A model generated the notes under the pieces. It did not search any database. It was not told the DNA's origin and saw only the letters and a program-made list of their open reading frames with translations. Positions 14,348-56,332 of a stretch of DNA of 56,332 nt are shown here, piece by piece. Position numbers and translations under genes: made by a program. How positions within the stretch are numbered: position 1 is the first letter of the stretch; the number at the start of each line of letters is the position of its first letter. Source of the stretch: an uncultured Candidatus Saccharibacteria bacterium (GTDB lineage: Bacteria > Patescibacteriota > Minisyncoccia > Phycocordibacterales > WO2-35-19); contig CAYTTP010000003.1 of assembly GCA_964440955.1 (NCBI GenBank), forward strand, positions 1 through 56,332. Reading direction: 5' to 3'.

Positions 14348-14698
14348 TTAACCTCTAATTTTTATAATTAATTTTCTGATTAAATATCCCAAGACAAAGC
14401 CAGCGATAGCTAATATTATTGGTATATAAATATGATTAAAATCTCCTGCTACAAAATAAAGTATGGCTGGTAGTAATAACCAAAACTTTATTTTTGATGA
14501 TTCAAAAAATATTGGTACGAAAAAAATATATGCCAGCGGTACTCCTACTAGTGAGATCAATATATCCTTACTTACCCCTCTGGTGTTGTCATATTGTGGA
14601 GAAAATTTATCATACCAGTTACCAAATATATCTGACAAAAAATAACTGATAATTAAAACAGCTACAAACAACAATGTATTTTTTAAAAAATTTTTCAT
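14348..14698 (-). CDS. hypothetical membrane protein (4 transmembrane helices)
   Basis: 116-aa hydrophobic ORF abutting (2-nt overlap) the upstream large secreted protein gene. Confidence 0.4.
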   Translation of the reverse strand: MKNFLKNTLLFVAVLIISYFLSDIFGNWYDKFSPQYDNTRGVSKDILISLVGVPLAYIFFVPIFFESSKIKFWLLLPAILYFVAGDFNHIYIPIILAIAGFVLGYLIRKLIIKIRG

Positions 14699-18003: not shown

Positions 18004-18076
18004 CCGCCCGTAGCTCAGTTGGTAGAGCAGCTCCCTCTTAAGGAGATGGTCGTAGGTTCGACTCCTACCGGGCGGA
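18004..18076 (+). tRNA. tRNA-Lys (anticodon CTT)
   Basis: Acceptor ccgcccg/cgggcgg, D-arm gctc-agttggta-gagc, anticodon loop ctcttaa, T-arm gtagg-ttcgact-cctac, discriminator A. Confidence 0.8.
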
Positions 18077-36587: not shown

Positions 36588-37256
36588 ATGAAGGATACAA
36601 AATATTCGTATCAGAATTTAGTAGGATATATAAGTAGAATAATATTTATATTTGGCGTACCACTTATATTTGTCTATTTTTTTATTTATAAACCACTCAC
36701 TTTAAATAAATGTTTTTCATTTGTTAGTGAGGATGCTCTAAATAACAAGACTGTTGAAATTCAGGTGATCCGTTCTTTGGACCAGGTTGCACAAGAAATT
36801 AAATCATTGGATCCTATTTTACCATTAAATAATGACTGGTTTAAATTTAATGTAACTTTTAGTAATAATTTTAAAGTTGCAATAGTAACATCTAAACCAG
36901 ATTCATACACAGAGGCAACGACAACTTTTTTCTTAGAAACAAAAAACGGAAGCTCTACTATTCCATATGACCAGAAAATAATCATCAATGAAGTAGGGTC
37001 AGAAAATTTAAATAGTCTTATTACAAATCTTGGTTTTATTACAAACAATAAACCTATTTATGTACCTGGCGGCAGTATGATTTCCTTACAAACTAATCCA
37101 AATTTAGGTCAGTTCTGCTCTTTAGTGGAATTAAGTAGAAAATACAAGTTATTAATATACATTGAATCTCTTATAATATTTATTGGTCTGCTTTTAATAA
37201 CCAAAGAAATAATTAGCTTTATAAAACAAGGATTTTCAAATTATTTTAAATTATGA
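36588..37256 (+). CDS. hypothetical membrane-anchored protein (very AT-rich, Asn/Ile/Lys-rich)
   Basis: 222-aa ORF with N- and C-terminal transmembrane helices; roughly 28% GC, well below neighbouring genes. Confidence 0.45.
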   Translation: MKDTKYSYQNLVGYISRIIFIFGVPLIFVYFFIYKPLTLNKCFSFVSEDALNNKTVEIQVIRSLDQVAQEIKSLDPILPLNNDWFKFNVTFSNNFKVAIVTSKPDSYTEATTTFFLETKNGSSTIPYDQKIIINEVGSENLNSLITNLGFITNNKPIYVPGGSMISLQTNPNLGQFCSLVELSRKYKLLIYIESLIIFIGLLLITKEIISFIKQGFSNYFKL

Positions 37257-54656: not shown

Positions 54657-54729
54657 TGGTTGCCTAAGGGGTGATGTTTCTGGTACAATGCTCTCGTTCT
54701 TTGAAATTCCAAAAATTAGATTTTTTTGC

Positions 54730-55061
54730 TCCGGGATAGCTCAGCGGTAGAGCGAGCGACTGTGTCGTGACGCAGCTTCCAAAAGAAATTTTGGTTGAAA
54801 AACGAGGTGAATTCGGGGGAACCCCAAGTGGGCAATCCCGAGCCAATCCTAAATTAAAGAAAGATATTGTTGTGTAAAAACTTTAATTAAGGCAGGTGTA
54901 GAGACTATTCCGAAAGGAAGTACTTACTCCGTATTTCGGAGTCGGGAAGCGCCTCGCTCCTAATAGCCAATTTGGTTAAAGGAGATGATATAGTCCATAC
55001 TTCTAGTAATAGAAGAGAATATGTAATCGCTTGGTCGTAGGTTCGATCCCTACTCCCGGAG
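54730..55061 (+). tRNA. tRNA-Asn (anticodon GTT) interrupted by a group I intron in the anticodon loop
   Basis: 5' exon 54730-54763: tccggga-ta-gctc-agcggta-gagc-g-agcga-ctgt. 3' exon 55024-55061: taa-tcgct-tggtc-gtagg-ttcgatc-cctac-tcccgga-g. U1:A72 and G73 fit Asn; the 5' splice site follows a U and the intron ends in G. Confidence 0.7.
54764..55023 (+). other. group I self-splicing intron (~260 nt) within tRNA-Asn
   Basis: Conserved core elements R-like GTAGAGACTA (about 54897), S-like GATATAGTCC (about 54988), P-like AATTCGGGGGAA; the internal guide GCAG can pair with the exon end CTGT (U-G at the splice site); no ORF inside. Confidence 0.6.
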
Positions 55062-55077
55062 CAAAGGAATTTAATAT

Positions 55078-55452
55078 ATGACCCTTGAGTATATAGATCA
55101 TATAGTTTTAATAGTTAAAAATATTGAAGAAACTGAGAAGTTTTATTCTTCTTTTCTTGGTAAACCCGAATATCAGGATGAAAACCAAGTTGCCTATAAA
55201 ATTGGAGAAACTAAAATTTTCTTCGGTTTACCTTATGGAGAATATGAGAAATCAGATAAGGATAAAACAAGTTTGAATCACTTAGCTTTCGGAGTAAAGA
55301 CAGGAGAAGAATTGAGAAATATTGAGAAAGTTCTAAATGACGCAGGTATACAAAATAGCGGAATAAAAATAGATAAGTATGGTAACAAAGAATTTATATG
55401 GTTTGATGATCCGAGCAGTATTCGTTTAGAGATTTATTGCAGGCCAGAATAA
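55078..55452 (+). CDS. VOC-family (glyoxalase/bleomycin-resistance/dioxygenase fold) protein
   Basis: IDHIVLIVKNIEETEKFYSSFLG ... LNHLAFGV... Confidence 0.55.
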   Translation: MTLEYIDHIVLIVKNIEETEKFYSSFLGKPEYQDENQVAYKIGETKIFFGLPYGEYEKSDKDKTSLNHLAFGVKTGEELRNIEKVLNDAGIQNSGIKIDKYGNKEFIWFDDPSSIRLEIYCRPE

Positions 55453-55454
55453 TT

Positions 55455-55988
55455 ATGAATAAAACTAACCTCGAACTAAAACATTACTGTAAGGACTTCA
55501 CTAAGATTAGAACTGTTTTGAAAGGAATAGGAGCTAAAAAGGTTATGGTCAAAAACCAAAAGGATTATTTCTTTAATTTGCCTGCTATAAATAAAGCTAA
55601 ATCTCCAAGGTTAAAATTGAGGATTGAAAATAAAAAACAATATCTTATTTATTATGAAAGACCAAAGTTTGTTAAGGGTAAAGATACAGCTTCTGATATT
55701 AAACTTTATGATGTAAAAGATAAGAAACTTTTACCATTCCTTATTAAATCCCTGGGAACCCAAGCAATCGTCGAAAAAAAGCGAGAAGTTTGGAGAAAGA
55801 CCAACACTGTATTTCATTTGGATACTGTGAAGAGTGTCGGTGGTGTATTTGAGGTAGAACTACAAAAGAAAGGCGGTCTAATTACTGAGGATGACAGAAA
55901 AATCTTCAAATCTTATCAGGATAAATTACTCCCTTTTCTGGGTTCGGTTATAAAAGGTTCTAACGTGGATTTAGTAAATAAGTTATAA
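55455..55988 (+). CDS. CYTH-domain protein (class IV adenylate cyclase / CyaB-like)
   Basis: ELKHYC.DF..IR..L..IGA, QKDYFF, LKLRIE, KKREVW, FHLDTVKSVGGVFEVE match the CYTH fold pattern; start taken at MNKTNLELK. Confidence 0.55.
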   Translation: MNKTNLELKHYCKDFTKIRTVLKGIGAKKVMVKNQKDYFFNLPAINKAKSPRLKLRIENKKQYLIYYERPKFVKGKDTASDIKLYDVKDKKLLPFLIKSLGTQAIVEKKREVWRKTNTVFHLDTVKSVGGVFEVELQKKGGLITEDDRKIFKSYQDKLLPFLGSVIKGSNVDLVNKL

Positions 55989-56332
55989 CATCCTGAAGTT
56001 TTTCTCTGAGACAAATAGTCTCTATTCTTTCTTCAACTACTTCTTCAAATTTCCCGACTTCATCGATATGAGGATCGGCTCCTTGTTCTGGTTTAAATCT
56101 ACCTACACCTTTTTTACATTTTTAGTTGCAACAGGATTCATGTCTTAAATTAAGCATAATTTACCACATTTTAGGCCTTCAGTAAACGATTTTTCTTATG
56201 CTAAAATATCTTAATCAAGCCATTTTTATAGATATTGACTAATTACTAATAATATGCTAATATATGAATAGTTTAGAAATGTAAATTCTGGGGTGAAGTG
56301 CAACTGCAGTTGCTAATACCTCAGAGTATACC

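What the first reader, a model, noticed from the sequence alone, without database searches (positions are those of the whole stretch)
54730..55061. Group I intron in the anticodon loop of tRNA-Asn (GTT), followed by an AT-rich gene block
The exons reconstruct a canonical tRNA with U1:A72 and G73 (Asn identity) and anticodon stem agcga/tcgct. They are separated by 260 nt that contain group I core-like elements (GTAGAGACTA; GATATAGTCC; AATTCGGGGGAA) and end in G. The intron sits after U35, whereas the classic cyanobacterial tRNA-Leu intron sits after U34. It has no homing-endonuclease ORF. Immediately downstream (55062-56332) the composition drops to roughly 30% GC, with VOC and CYTH genes, suggestive of an island at this tRNA.
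Basis: partly seen in the sequence, partly recalled or inferred. Interest (0 to 1): 0.6.

Follow-up and report, generated by a model that had tools for sequence, protein, structure and literature searches.

The report
Self-splicing intron inside tRNA-Asn gene
A 260-base self-splicing (group I) intron really does interrupt the anticodon loop of the asparagine tRNA gene of an uncultured Patescibacteria bacterium, but this kind of intron at this site was catalogued in 2020 and shown to splice in 2026, so it is an ordinary new example.

Summary
Exons 54730-54763 and 55024-55061 join into a canonical tRNA-Asn(GUU). The 260 nt between them (54764-55023) form a complete group I intron (Rfam 78 bits, gathering score 50). 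It has a U·G wobble at the 5' splice site, a terminal G, helices P1-P9, and two extra hairpins (P7.1/P7.2) typical of subgroup IA. A scan of species-representative genomes returned 77 tRNA-Asn genes split at the same site. Covariation across 39 of them strongly supports the fold. The window is a Patescibacteria contig. The class is already published as "Asn.4Ug" (Williams 2020) and as position-35/36 IA introns of Patescibacteria tRNA-Asn, with precise self-splicing shown in vitro (Nakagawa et al. 2026). This copy has no endonuclease gene, whereas most of the longer relatives carry an HNH gene in the P1 loop. A relative with the same gene order has an intron-less tRNA-Asn at this locus.

The "island" idea is unproven. 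The low GC is real but is intrinsic to the CYTH gene family, and no integrase or att repeat is visible before the contig ends. However, the region downstream of this tRNA slot varies between relatives, and one carries a serine recombinase there.

Verdict: real, well explained, a new member of a known kind, low interest.

The parts
54660..54689 (+). Promoter-like site (TTGCCT, 18-nt spacer, TG-TACAAT) about 40 nt upstream of the tRNA
   Evidence: Consensus scan only. The number of such sites in the region is no higher than in shuffles, so this is a weak inference.
54730..54763 (+). tRNA-Asn 5' exon (positions 1-35, ending ...CUGU, with U35 as U-1)
   Evidence: ARAGORN with introns allowed. The body is 82-89% identical to the most similar Patescibacteria tRNA-Asn exons (family median 76%).
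54760..54775 (+). P1: exon CUGU plus intron GU pair with the internal guide sequence ACGCAG (54770-54775). U54763·G54772 is the wobble pair that marks the 5' splice site.
   Evidence: Rfam alignment. CUGU:GCAG, including the U·G pair, is invariant in 39 of 39 family members.
54764..55023 (+). Group I intron, 260 nt, no ORF, subgroup IA-like
   Evidence: Rfam 78.2 bits; covariation; MFE z-score -3.5.
54779..54794 (+). P2 hairpin (CCAAAA-GAAA-UUUUGG)
   Evidence: 6 of 6 pairs show double-sided changes and 97.4% of cells are paired. Recovered in the centroid fold.
54803..54809 (+). P3 5' strand (CGAGGUG), which pairs with 54950-54956
   Evidence: 99.6% paired; 3 pairs are compensatory and 4 invariant.
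54813..54841 (+). P4 (54813-18 with 54836-41) enclosing P5 (54822-24 with 54830-32)
   Evidence: P4 is 98.3% paired with 5 of 6 pairs compensatory. P5 is 98.7% paired over the two pairs tested, 54822:54832 and 54823:54831; the third pair, 54824:54830, comes from my manual fold and was not tested.
54842..54897 (+). P6 (54842-44 with 54895-97) and the extended P6a hairpin (54848-54892)
   Evidence: P6 is 99.1% paired and P6a 96.6% paired, both with compensatory changes.
54901..54907 (+). P7 5' strand (G-A-GACUA, with A54902 bulged), which pairs with 54991-54996 as a pseudoknot and forms the guanosine-binding helix
   Evidence: All 6 pairs are invariant in 39 of 39 sequences.
54908..54919 (+). 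P7.1 hairpin (UUCC-GAAA-GGAA)
   Evidence: Fully paired in 39 of 41 subtype-A relatives, with 7 different stem sequences.
54927..54941 (+). P7.2 hairpin (CUCCG-UAUUU-CGGAG)
   Evidence: A second hairpin of 4-9 bp with unrelated sequence is present in all 41 subtype-A relatives.
54950..54956 (+). P3 3' strand (CGCCUCG)
54957..54984 (+). P8 (CUCCU with AGGAG, plus an inner hairpin)
   Evidence: 97.4% paired; 4 of 5 pairs compensatory.
54985..54996 (+). J8/7 (AUGAUA) and P7 3' strand (UAGUCC)
   Evidence: Invariant core.
55000..55015 (+). P9 hairpin (CUUCUA-GUAA-UAGAAG) with a GNRA loop
   Evidence: All 41 subtype-A relatives have a 5-10 bp P9 capped by a GNRA loop.
55023..55023 (+). Terminal guanosine (omega-G) at the 3' splice site
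   Evidence: This is the only register that gives U-1 and omega-G together with a 7-nt loop. The Thr(UGU) register would put A55021 at the omega position.
55024..55061 (+). tRNA-Asn 3' exon (U36 to discriminator G73). CCA is not encoded; the next bases are CAAAG.
55078..55988 (+). Context only, not part of the intron: VOC/glyoxalase-family gene (55078-55452) and CYTH gene (55437/55455-55988), both AT-rich (GC 0.31-0.32)
   Evidence: Pfam, composition, and CYTH relatives.

Best explanation
This is the tRNA-Asn(GUU) gene of a Patescibacteria (Parcubacteria/Paceibacteria-type) bacterium, interrupted between anticodon positions 35 and 36 by an intact, ORF-less 260-nt group I intron of subgroup IA.

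The precursor is transcribed as one RNA. The intron folds into P1-P9 plus P7.1/P7.2. Its internal guide sequence (ACGCAG) pairs with the exon end CUGU and the first two intron bases, which places U35 in a U·G wobble pair. An external guanosine bound in P7 attacks after U35. The terminal G55023 then takes over the same site, and the freed U35 3'-OH attacks after G55023. This joins CUGU to UAA and restores the GUU anticodon.

The folding, boundaries and family membership are shown here. The chemistry is inferred from the family; it has been demonstrated in vitro for a related Patescibacteria tRNA-Asn intron, not for this sequence.

The intron probably descends from a mobile form that carried an HNH homing endonuclease in the P1 loop. 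It has since lost, or never had, that gene, so it now persists by vertical inheritance. Imprecise loss would destroy the anticodon.
For: - Rfam Intron_gpI scores 78.2 bits against a gathering score of 50, with a full-length match.
- ARAGORN with introns allowed, and in-silico splicing, give canonical tRNA-Asn(gtt) only for the junction 54763/55024 when U-1 and omega-G are both required.
- 77 of 120 loci sampled from GTDB species representatives are tRNA-Asn genes split at the identical CUGU/UAA site.
- On 39 aligned introns, my structure has 86.8% of cells paired, against 33-43% when the partners are slid. 40 of 59 pairs show double-sided changes. The covariation score is 0.394 against 0.126 in shuffles, with 0 of 500 shuffles reaching the observed value.
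- P7.1, P7.2 and P9 are confirmed sequence by sequence.
- The centroid fold independently recovers P2-P6a, P7.1, P7.2, P8 and P9, with z = -3.5.
- Our copy keeps all 52 invariant columns and 71 of 76 columns that are at least 90% conserved.
- It is about 76-81% identical, over aligned positions, to published Patescibacteria tRNA-Asn introns, including the experimentally spliced one from GCA_016700035.1.
- Literature: the class is Asn.4Ug (Williams 2020, 10.1101/2020.01.27.920355). Nakagawa et al. 2026 (PMC13011429) describe the 35/36 site, the IA subgroup, in vitro self-splicing abolished by an omega-G-to-C change, and HNH genes in some copies.
- Taxonomy: all named top homologs of Dus and CYTH are from Patescibacteria.
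- A syntenic relative, L131, has an intron-less tRNA-Asn in the same slot with the same CGACUGU|UAAUCG context.
- 17 of the 23 long relatives encode a C-x2-C...CANCH protein in the P1 loop. Pfam identifies four of these as HNH, two above the curated cut-off.
Against: - No splicing data exist for this sequence.
- No convincing P10 pairing exists between the 3' exon and the guide sequence, by my inspection. The exons are presumably aligned by the anticodon stem.
- Our copy differs from the family at five near-invariant columns (54847, 54893, 54899, 55007, 55010). None looks damaging. Two are P9 alignment artefacts. One (U54899) is the residue also seen in the Azoarcus intron. The other two recur together in relative L105.
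- Only one 56-kb contig is available, so I cannot show that this is the only tRNA-Asn gene and therefore that splicing is essential.
Confidence: 0.93

Rival explanations
1. The intron is a decaying, splicing-defective relic, and this tRNA-Asn copy is a pseudogene. An intact tRNA-Asn elsewhere in the genome does the work.
For: Only 56 kb of the genome is visible. The copy has no homing endonuclease. It differs from the family at five near-invariant columns.
Against: All invariant core positions are kept, as are P1 with its U·G pair, P3, P4, P6, P7 and P8. The exons form a flawless cloverleaf. Nakagawa et al. report that a genome rarely holds both an intron-containing and an intron-less copy with the same anticodon.
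Confidence: 0.04
2. The gene is tRNA-Thr(UGU) with the intron at position 33/34. This is the register that ARAGORN and tFind often report for this family.
For: ARAGORN gives this call for many relatives. In 48 of 77 relatives, the Thr register also satisfies the U-1/omega-G rule.
Against: In our copy that register would place A55021 at the omega position. The invariant U·G pair in P1 is at U35. The tRNA body has U1:A72 and G73. It is 82-89% identical to the most similar tRNA-Asn exons, against 59-71% to Paceibacterota tRNA-Thr genes. The published RT-PCR sequence of a relative shows the 35/36 junction.
Confidence: 0.01
3. The AT-rich VOC-CYTH block is cargo of a genomic island integrated at the 3' end of this tRNA-Asn. 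This is the reader's side suggestion, and it is compatible with the main explanation.
For: - The last 1,250 nt have the lowest GC in the window.
- The region downstream of the conserved Dus-bPH-PAP2(-tRNA-Asn) block differs in every relative examined.
- In L131 a large serine recombinase abuts the 3' end of the syntenic tRNA-Asn. In L130 a low-GC block with HTH_17 and a DNA methylase follows.
- CYTH homologs reach 87% identity, while the best Dus homolog reaches 72%.
- Two independent assemblies both break about 320-345 nt after CYTH.
Against: - The window holds no integrase, no att-like repeat of the tRNA 3' end, and no mobility gene.
- CYTH is equally AT-rich (0.29-0.34 against 0.40-0.46) in four relatives, where it sits in unrelated contexts that are not next to tRNA-Asn. 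The low GC is therefore intrinsic to the gene family.
- Two genes elsewhere in the window have even lower GC.
- All named CYTH homologs are from Patescibacteria, so the gene is not obviously foreign.
Confidence: 0.2
4. The two tRNA halves are unrelated fragments, or an assembly chimera, that happen to flank a free-standing group I ribozyme.
For: None beyond the fact that this is a metagenomic contig.
Against: An independent Logan assembly carries the flanking genes of the same locus (PAP2, VOC, CYTH) in the same arrangement. The halves complement each other perfectly in the acceptor and anticodon stems. The same split occurs in 77 other genomes.
Confidence: 0.01

Closest known systems
Position-35/36 subgroup-IA group I introns of Patescibacteria tRNA-Asn(GUU) (Nakagawa et al. 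2026, mSystems, PMC13011429); class 'Asn.4Ug' of Williams 2020 (bioRxiv 10.1101/2020.01.27.920355)
   Same: - Same tRNA, same insertion site (CUGU|UAA) and same phylum.
- Same core, and the same P7.1 insertion between P7 and P3'.
- Similar size (260 nt; the published average is 257 nt).
- Usually no endonuclease gene.
- Missed by default tRNA finders, as reported.
- About 76-81% identical over aligned positions to four published members.
   Different: Nothing qualitative. Our copy belongs to the variant with two hairpins (P7.1 tetraloop hairpin, GUAC, then P7.2). The experimentally spliced GCA_016700035.1 intron and the cyanobacterial Pam37 seed have a single hairpin with a conserved GAG..CCAAYAAUA loop there. 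Our copy's register is unambiguous, unlike most relatives.
Cyanobacterial/plastid tRNA-Leu(UAA) group I intron (Anabaena/Nostoc; subgroup IC3)
   Same: It is a self-splicing group I intron in the anticodon loop of a bacterial tRNA gene. It has a U·G pair at the 5' splice site and a terminal G, and it usually has no ORF.
   Different: It is inserted after U34 (34/35) rather than U35. It belongs to subgroup IC3 and has no P7.1/P7.2. The host tRNA is different.
Azoarcus tRNA-Ile(CAU) and Agrobacterium tRNA-Arg(CCU) introns (subgroup IC3)
   Same: Small ORF-less tRNA introns with near-identical J6/7-P7 (GUAGAGACUA) and J8/7-P7' (AUAGUCC) core sequences.
   Different: They are inserted at 36/37. 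They have no P7.1/P7.2. Identity to our intron is about 48%.
Group I introns in the T-loop of tmRNA genes, and phage subgroup-IA introns such as T4 td
   Same: They share the P7.1/P7.2 insertion between P7 and P3'. This appears in the SS_cons line of Williams's seed alignment. Its status as the subgroup-IA hallmark is from my own knowledge of Michel and Westhof 1990.
   Different: The host genes and insertion sites differ. The phage introns usually carry GIY-YIG or HNH ORFs in other loops.

Membership tests
Group I intron (Rfam RF00028) | Conserved catalytic core: P3-P8 with the P3/P7 pseudoknot and the J6/7, J8/7 and J3/4 consensus | tested here: met
   78.2 bits against a gathering score of 50, full model. 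P3, P4, P6 and P8 are 97-100% paired with compensatory changes, and P7 is invariant.
Group I intron (Rfam RF00028) | 5' splice site defined by a U·G wobble in P1, formed with an internal guide sequence | tested here: met
   U54763·G54772 lies within a 6-bp P1. The pair is invariant in 39 of 39 relatives.
Group I intron (Rfam RF00028) | Terminal guanosine (omega-G) at the 3' splice site | tested here: met
   G55023. This is the only U-1/omega-G register that gives a 7-nt anticodon loop.
Group I intron (Rfam RF00028) | Guanosine-initiated self-splicing activity | not testable with these tools
   [quoted passage not shown] Not shown for this sequence.
Group I intron (Rfam RF00028) | Exon ligation restores a functional host RNA | tested here: met
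   The in-silico spliced product is a canonical 72-nt tRNA-Asn(GUU), 82-89% identical to the most similar Patescibacteria tRNA-Asn exons (family median 76%) and 86% identical (62 of 72 positions) to the intron-less syntenic gene in L131.
tRNA-Asn 35/36 ('Asn.4Ug') intron class | Host is tRNA-Asn(GUU), with the intron between anticodon positions 35 and 36 (CUGU|UAA) | tested here: met
   The same site occurs in 77 sampled genomes and in the published tables.
tRNA-Asn 35/36 ('Asn.4Ug') intron class | Sequence homology to class members beyond the universal core | tested here: met
   blastn finds 70-82% identity over core segments to L049, L074 and L085, and 76-81% over aligned positions to published members. 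The guide sequence GCAG and the GGUGAAUU and AGCGCC motifs are shared.
Subgroup IA (as opposed to IC3, the classical bacterial tRNA introns) | Extra helices P7.1/P7.2 between the P7 5' strand and the P3 3' strand | tested here: met
   There are two hairpins, at 54908-19 and 54927-41. P7.1 is fully paired in 39 of 41 relatives with 7 stem variants, and P7.2 is present in all. The formal subgroup covariance models used by Nakagawa et al. were not available here.
Mobile (homing) group I intron | Intron-encoded homing endonuclease | tested here: not met
   The 260-nt intron has no such ORF, and its P1 loop is only 4 nt. 17 of 23 long relatives carry an HNH-type ORF in the P1 loop.
tRNA-associated genomic island | Integrase or recombinase next to the tRNA, plus a direct repeat of the tRNA 3' end at the far border | tested here: inconclusive
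   Neither is present in the 1.27 kb before the contig ends. A relative has a serine recombinase abutting the syntenic tRNA-Asn.

The most novel reading that the evidence does not exclude
If this is the only tRNA-Asn gene of a reduced genome, all Asn decoding depends on a guanosine-dependent ribozyme. Intron splicing could then act as an RNA-level gate that couples tRNA-Asn supply, and so translation, to GTP/guanosine or Mg2+ status. Nakagawa et al. raise this idea as a speculation for Patescibacteria. Nothing here tests it. The evidence only fails to exclude it.
Probability: 0.08. Interest if true: 0.55.

Novelty: new member of a known kind. Interest (0 to 1): 0.15.

Why it matters
The value is mainly practical. 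Default tRNA finders (ARAGORN and the Rfam tRNA model here; tRNAscan-SE according to the literature) miss this gene. The genome would therefore appear to lack tRNA-Asn and would score as less complete.

This locus adds one unambiguous example to a class whose boundaries are often mis-called by two nucleotides as tRNA-Thr. The syntenic relative with an intron-less tRNA-Asn gives a clean presence/absence pair for studying intron gain and loss in Patescibacteria. The finding does not open a new question about ribozymes or tRNA biology.

Tried and rejected
- Default ARAGORN and the Rfam tRNA model found no tRNA at this site. Intron mode was needed.
- I tested all junctions within about ±4 nt of the predicted splice sites (54759-54767 on the 5' side, 55019-55028 on the 3' side). 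Many give some tRNA call, but only 54763/55024 combines U-1, omega-G and a 7-nt loop.
- The Thr(UGU) register was rejected.
- The MAFFT alignment mis-registers P9, P7.1, P7.2 and the intron side of P1, which gives falsely low pairing of 35-70% there. I re-tested these helices with anchored, per-sequence checks instead.
- I looked for a P10 pairing between the 3' exon and the guide sequence and found none convincing.
- I looked for an att-like repeat of the tRNA 3' end. The only 15-mer match is the T-arm of tRNA-Lys at 18047.
- tblastn of window proteins against the 120 fetched loci gave few hits and no synteny.
- VOC has no homolog in any fetched locus.
- CYTH relatives showed no conserved neighbourhood.
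- The first literature search, with 'tRNA-Asn' hyphenated, found only organelle papers. The spelling 'tRNAAsn' found the key paper.
- 43 of the 120 pattern hits had no split-tRNA call and were not examined further.

Full report
**Observation.** The region reads as the first-stage reader described.
- Rfam's group I intron model matches 54754-55016 on the + strand at 78.2 bits (gathering score 50; E 3e-18), over the whole model.
- ARAGORN in default mode and Rfam's tRNA model report ten other tRNAs in the window but nothing here.
- Joining 54763 to 55024 gives a canonical cloverleaf. It has acceptor UCCGGGA/UCCCGGA with U1:A72, discriminator G73 at 55061, anticodon stem AGCGA/UCGCU and loop CUGUUAA. 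CCA is not encoded.
- I tested all junctions within about ±4 nt of the predicted splice sites. Only this one combines a U before the 5' splice site, a G at the intron's 3' end and a 7-nt loop.
- The alternative tRNA-Thr(UGU) register, which software often reports for this family, would put A55021 at the terminal-G position. It also does not fit the tRNA body, which is 82-89% identical to the most similar Patescibacteria tRNA-Asn exons (family median 76%) but only 59-71% identical to Paceibacterota tRNA-Thr genes.

**Anatomy.** Coordinates are window positions.
- P1 pairs exon C60-U63 and intron G64-U65 with A70-G75 (all 547xx). U54763·G54772 is the wobble pair that defines the 5' splice site.
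- The remaining helices are P2 (54779-94, GAAA loop); P3 (54803-09 with 54950-56); P4 (54813-18 with 54836-41); P5; P6 and a long P6a; P7 (54901-07 with 54991-96, with A54902 bulged); two hairpins between P7 and P3', namely P7.1 (54908-19, GAAA loop) and P7.2 (54927-41); P8 (54957-84); and P9 (55000-15, GUAA loop).
- The intron ends at omega-G 55023.
- The thermodynamic centroid fold independently recovers every non-pseudoknotted helix from P2 to P9 (P1 needs the exon bases, which were not in the folded sequence). The energy z-score is -3.5 against 200 shuffles.
- The P7.1/P7.2 insertion marks subgroup IA rather than IC3, the subgroup of the classical bacterial tRNA introns. That this insertion defines IA is from my own knowledge of Michel and Westhof 1990. 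The same insertion appears in the consensus structure line of Williams's seed alignment.

**Relatives.** A pattern spanning P3', J8/7-P7', P9 and the first exon bases is unique in the window and absent from 100 shuffles.
- 77 of them are tRNA-Asn(GUU) genes split at exactly CUGU|UAA.
- The host labels include many Patescibacteria lineages (WWE3, Portnoy-, Nealson-, Magasanikii-, Uhr- and Saccharibacteria). They also include Elusimicrobia, Nitrospira, Acidobacteriota, Cyanobacteria and deltaproteobacterial MAGs.
- Intron lengths run from 230 to 723 nt. Of the 23 introns longer than 400 nt, 17 encode a protein of about 84-135 aa with C-x2-C ... CANCHxE(V/I)H motifs. Pfam identifies four tested examples as HNH, two above the curated cut-off. 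From a published sequence, the ORF sits in the P1 loop.
- Our copy has a 4-nt P1 loop and no ORF.

**Covariation.** I aligned our intron with 38 ORF-less relatives (A1) and projected my structure onto the alignment.
- 86.8% of cells form standard pairs, against 33-43% when the 3' partners are slid by 1-3 columns.
- 40 of 59 pairs show changes on both sides.
- The covariation score is 0.394, against 0.126 ± 0.007 in shuffles, and 0 of 500 shuffles reach it.
- P2, P3, P4, P6, P6a and P8 are 96.6-99.6% paired, with several pair types each. The exon part of P1 (including the U·G pair) and P7 never vary.
- The low values for P9, P7.1, P7.2 and the intron side of P1 come from MAFFT mis-registration. 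In an anchored test on the 41 sequences that share our two-hairpin architecture, P7.1 is fully paired in 39, with seven different stem sequences. A second hairpin of 4-9 bp is always present, and P9 always ends in a GNRA loop.
- The family splits into two variants of the P7-P3' insert. Ours has two hairpins and is typical of Patescibacteria, Elusimicrobia and some Clostridia-labelled MAGs. The other has a single hairpin with a conserved GAGGANCC...CCAAUAA loop and occurs in Cyanobacteria, Nitrospira and Acidobacteriota.
- Our copy keeps all invariant columns and differs at only 5 of 76 columns that are at least 90% conserved. None of the five lies in a core helix. It looks intact.

**What is already known.** Williams (2020, bioRxiv 10.1101/2020.01.27.920355) expanded bacterial tRNA group I intron types from 4 to 21. 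His seed alignment contains 'Pam37.Asn.4Ug', the same tRNA and the same site. Our intron is about 53% identical to it, and it is of the cyanobacterial variant.

Nakagawa et al. (2026, mSystems, PMC13011429; preprint 10.1101/2025.07.03.662931) report the following:
[quoted passage not shown] There are 15 tRNA-Asn cases in 95 genomes.
- ARAGORN and tFind often mis-call them as tRNA-Thr(UGU) with the intron at 33/34, because of a 2-nt boundary shift.
- 25 of the 28 introns at 35/36 are subgroup IA.
- Most lack endonuclease genes, and four tRNA-Asn introns carry HNH genes.
- The tRNA-Asn intron of GCA_016700035.1 self-splices precisely in vitro, and an omega-G-to-C change blocks exon ligation.

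Our intron is 76-81% identical, over aligned positions, to four sequences from their Table S3, including the experimentally spliced one. The finding is therefore a new member of a described and experimentally validated class.

**Organism.** All named top homologs of the housekeeping Dus protein (best 72% identity) are from Patescibacteria: Parcubacteria group, Zambryskibacteria and Pacebacteria. The same holds for CYTH: Paceibacterota, Liptonbacteria and Uhrbacteria. The tRNA body and the intron variant agree with this.

**The same locus in relatives.** The gene order TopA-DprA-SerRS-(two ORFs)-ClpB-like-Dus-(small ORF)-bPH-PAP2 recurs largely intact in three relatives whose Dus proteins are 66-72% identical to ours (L129 lacks the ClpB-like and bPH genes). 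After PAP2 the order breaks down.
- L131 (GCA_013565735.1) has an intron-less tRNA-Asn(GUU) in the same slot and orientation. It is 86% identical to our spliced product (62 of 72 positions) and has the identical CGACUGU|UAAUCG context. A 544-aa large serine recombinase abuts its 3' end.
- L130 has no tRNA there. It has a 1.1-kb gene-free gap followed by a low-GC block with HTH_17 and an N6/N4 DNA methylase.
- L129 has no tRNA there and continues with DUF6390.

This shows intron presence/absence polymorphism at a conserved locus. It fits the gain-and-loss cycle of homing-endonuclease introns, and our closest sampled intron relative (L049) carries the HNH gene.

**The island suggestion.**
- The last 1,250 nt of the window have GC 0.312, the lowest of all such windows. 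The VOC and CYTH genes lie about 2 sd below the gene mean.
- However, two genes elsewhere in the window have lower GC, about 0.27.
- There is no integrase, no repeat of the tRNA 3' end and no other mobility gene before the contig ends.
- The CYTH gene is equally AT-rich (0.29-0.34 against 0.40-0.46) in four relatives, where it lies in unrelated neighbourhoods. The compositional signal therefore belongs to the gene family and does not show an insertion here.
- In favour of the idea, the region downstream of this tRNA slot is clearly variable, a relative carries a recombinase there, and two independent assemblies both break shortly after CYTH.
- I rate the island reading at about 0.2. It does not affect the main conclusion.

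**Verdict.** The mechanism is standard group I self-splicing that restores the GUU anticodon. The class, the site, the subgroup, the host phylum and the activity are all published. Interest is low. The value lies in annotation and in the intron-plus/intron-minus comparison at a syntenic locus.

Noticed in passing
window 55437-55988; L122, L124, L126, L128: The CYTH (class IV adenylate cyclase-like) gene has more than 300 homologs. The listed top 120 are 60-87% identical, and all named ones are from Patescibacteria. That is higher than the best match of the housekeeping Dus protein (72%). In every genome checked the gene is much more AT-rich than its surroundings and lies in a different neighbourhood. 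In L126 it is 125 nt downstream of a tRNA-Gln. It behaves like a small, conserved gene that moves around.
   Followed up: partly
L131 8219-8730 and 8716-10350: In the syntenic relative, about 320 nt upstream of the intron-less tRNA-Asn, there is a second copy of the tRNA's upstream region plus its first 12 nt (…ATATAAAATTGTGATCAAAA.GGATTAT.TAATCATTCCGGGGTAGC). A GC-rich hairpin insert and a degenerate D-arm follow it. A large serine recombinase abuts the tRNA's 3' end. This looks like the scar of recombination at this tRNA.
   Followed up: partly
L012, L056, L068, L106, L113 (also L022, L027, L092, L099 with degenerate ORFs): HNH-encoding tRNA-Asn 35/36 introns occur on contigs labelled Deltaproteobacteria, Acidobacteriota (a 241-kb contig), Heliobacteriaceae and Gammaproteobacteria. 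Introns of about 550 nt in Nitrospira and deltaproteobacterial MAGs look like decayed versions. Nakagawa et al., working on complete genomes only, found endonuclease-bearing 35/36 IA introns only in Patescibacteria. MAG mis-binning cannot be excluded for the short contigs.
   Followed up: partly
L111 (contig CAYTFL010000170.1, 1,963 nt): A bacterial-type tRNA-Asn 35/36 intron sits on a contig binned as 'Candidatus Woesearchaeota archaeon'. This is probably mis-binning, as Williams suspected for a Pacearchaeota case.
   Followed up: no
L039, L091, L013 (tRNA-Tyr); L052, L066 (tRNA-Phe); L051 (tRNA-Leu CAA): The same 3'-core pattern also picked up related IA-type introns in other tRNA genes, several of them in Patescibacteria and Omnitrophota MAGs.
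   Followed up: no
window 55990-56150, minus strand: This looks like a small ORF broken at an A6 run. Adding one A gives a 53-aa reading frame, MNPVATKNVKKGVGRFKPEQGADPHIDEVGKFEEVVEERIETICLREKLQDVI. It has no Pfam match. A terminator-like hairpin lies at 56008-56022.
   Followed up: partly
window 36588-37256 (+) and 14348-14698 (-): These two genes have even lower GC (0.27) than the VOC/CYTH block, so AT-rich genes are scattered through this contig.
   Followed up: no
window 54847 and 54893: Our intron has U and C at these positions, flanking P6a, where 37 of 38 relatives have G and A. Relative L105 has the same U/C combination. This suggests a covarying non-canonical pair.
   Followed up: no
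43 of the 120 loci (e.g. L006-L009, L011, L014, L018): These pattern matches had no split-tRNA call. They could be chance matches, introns in other genes, or truncated contigs. I did not examine them.
   Followed up: no
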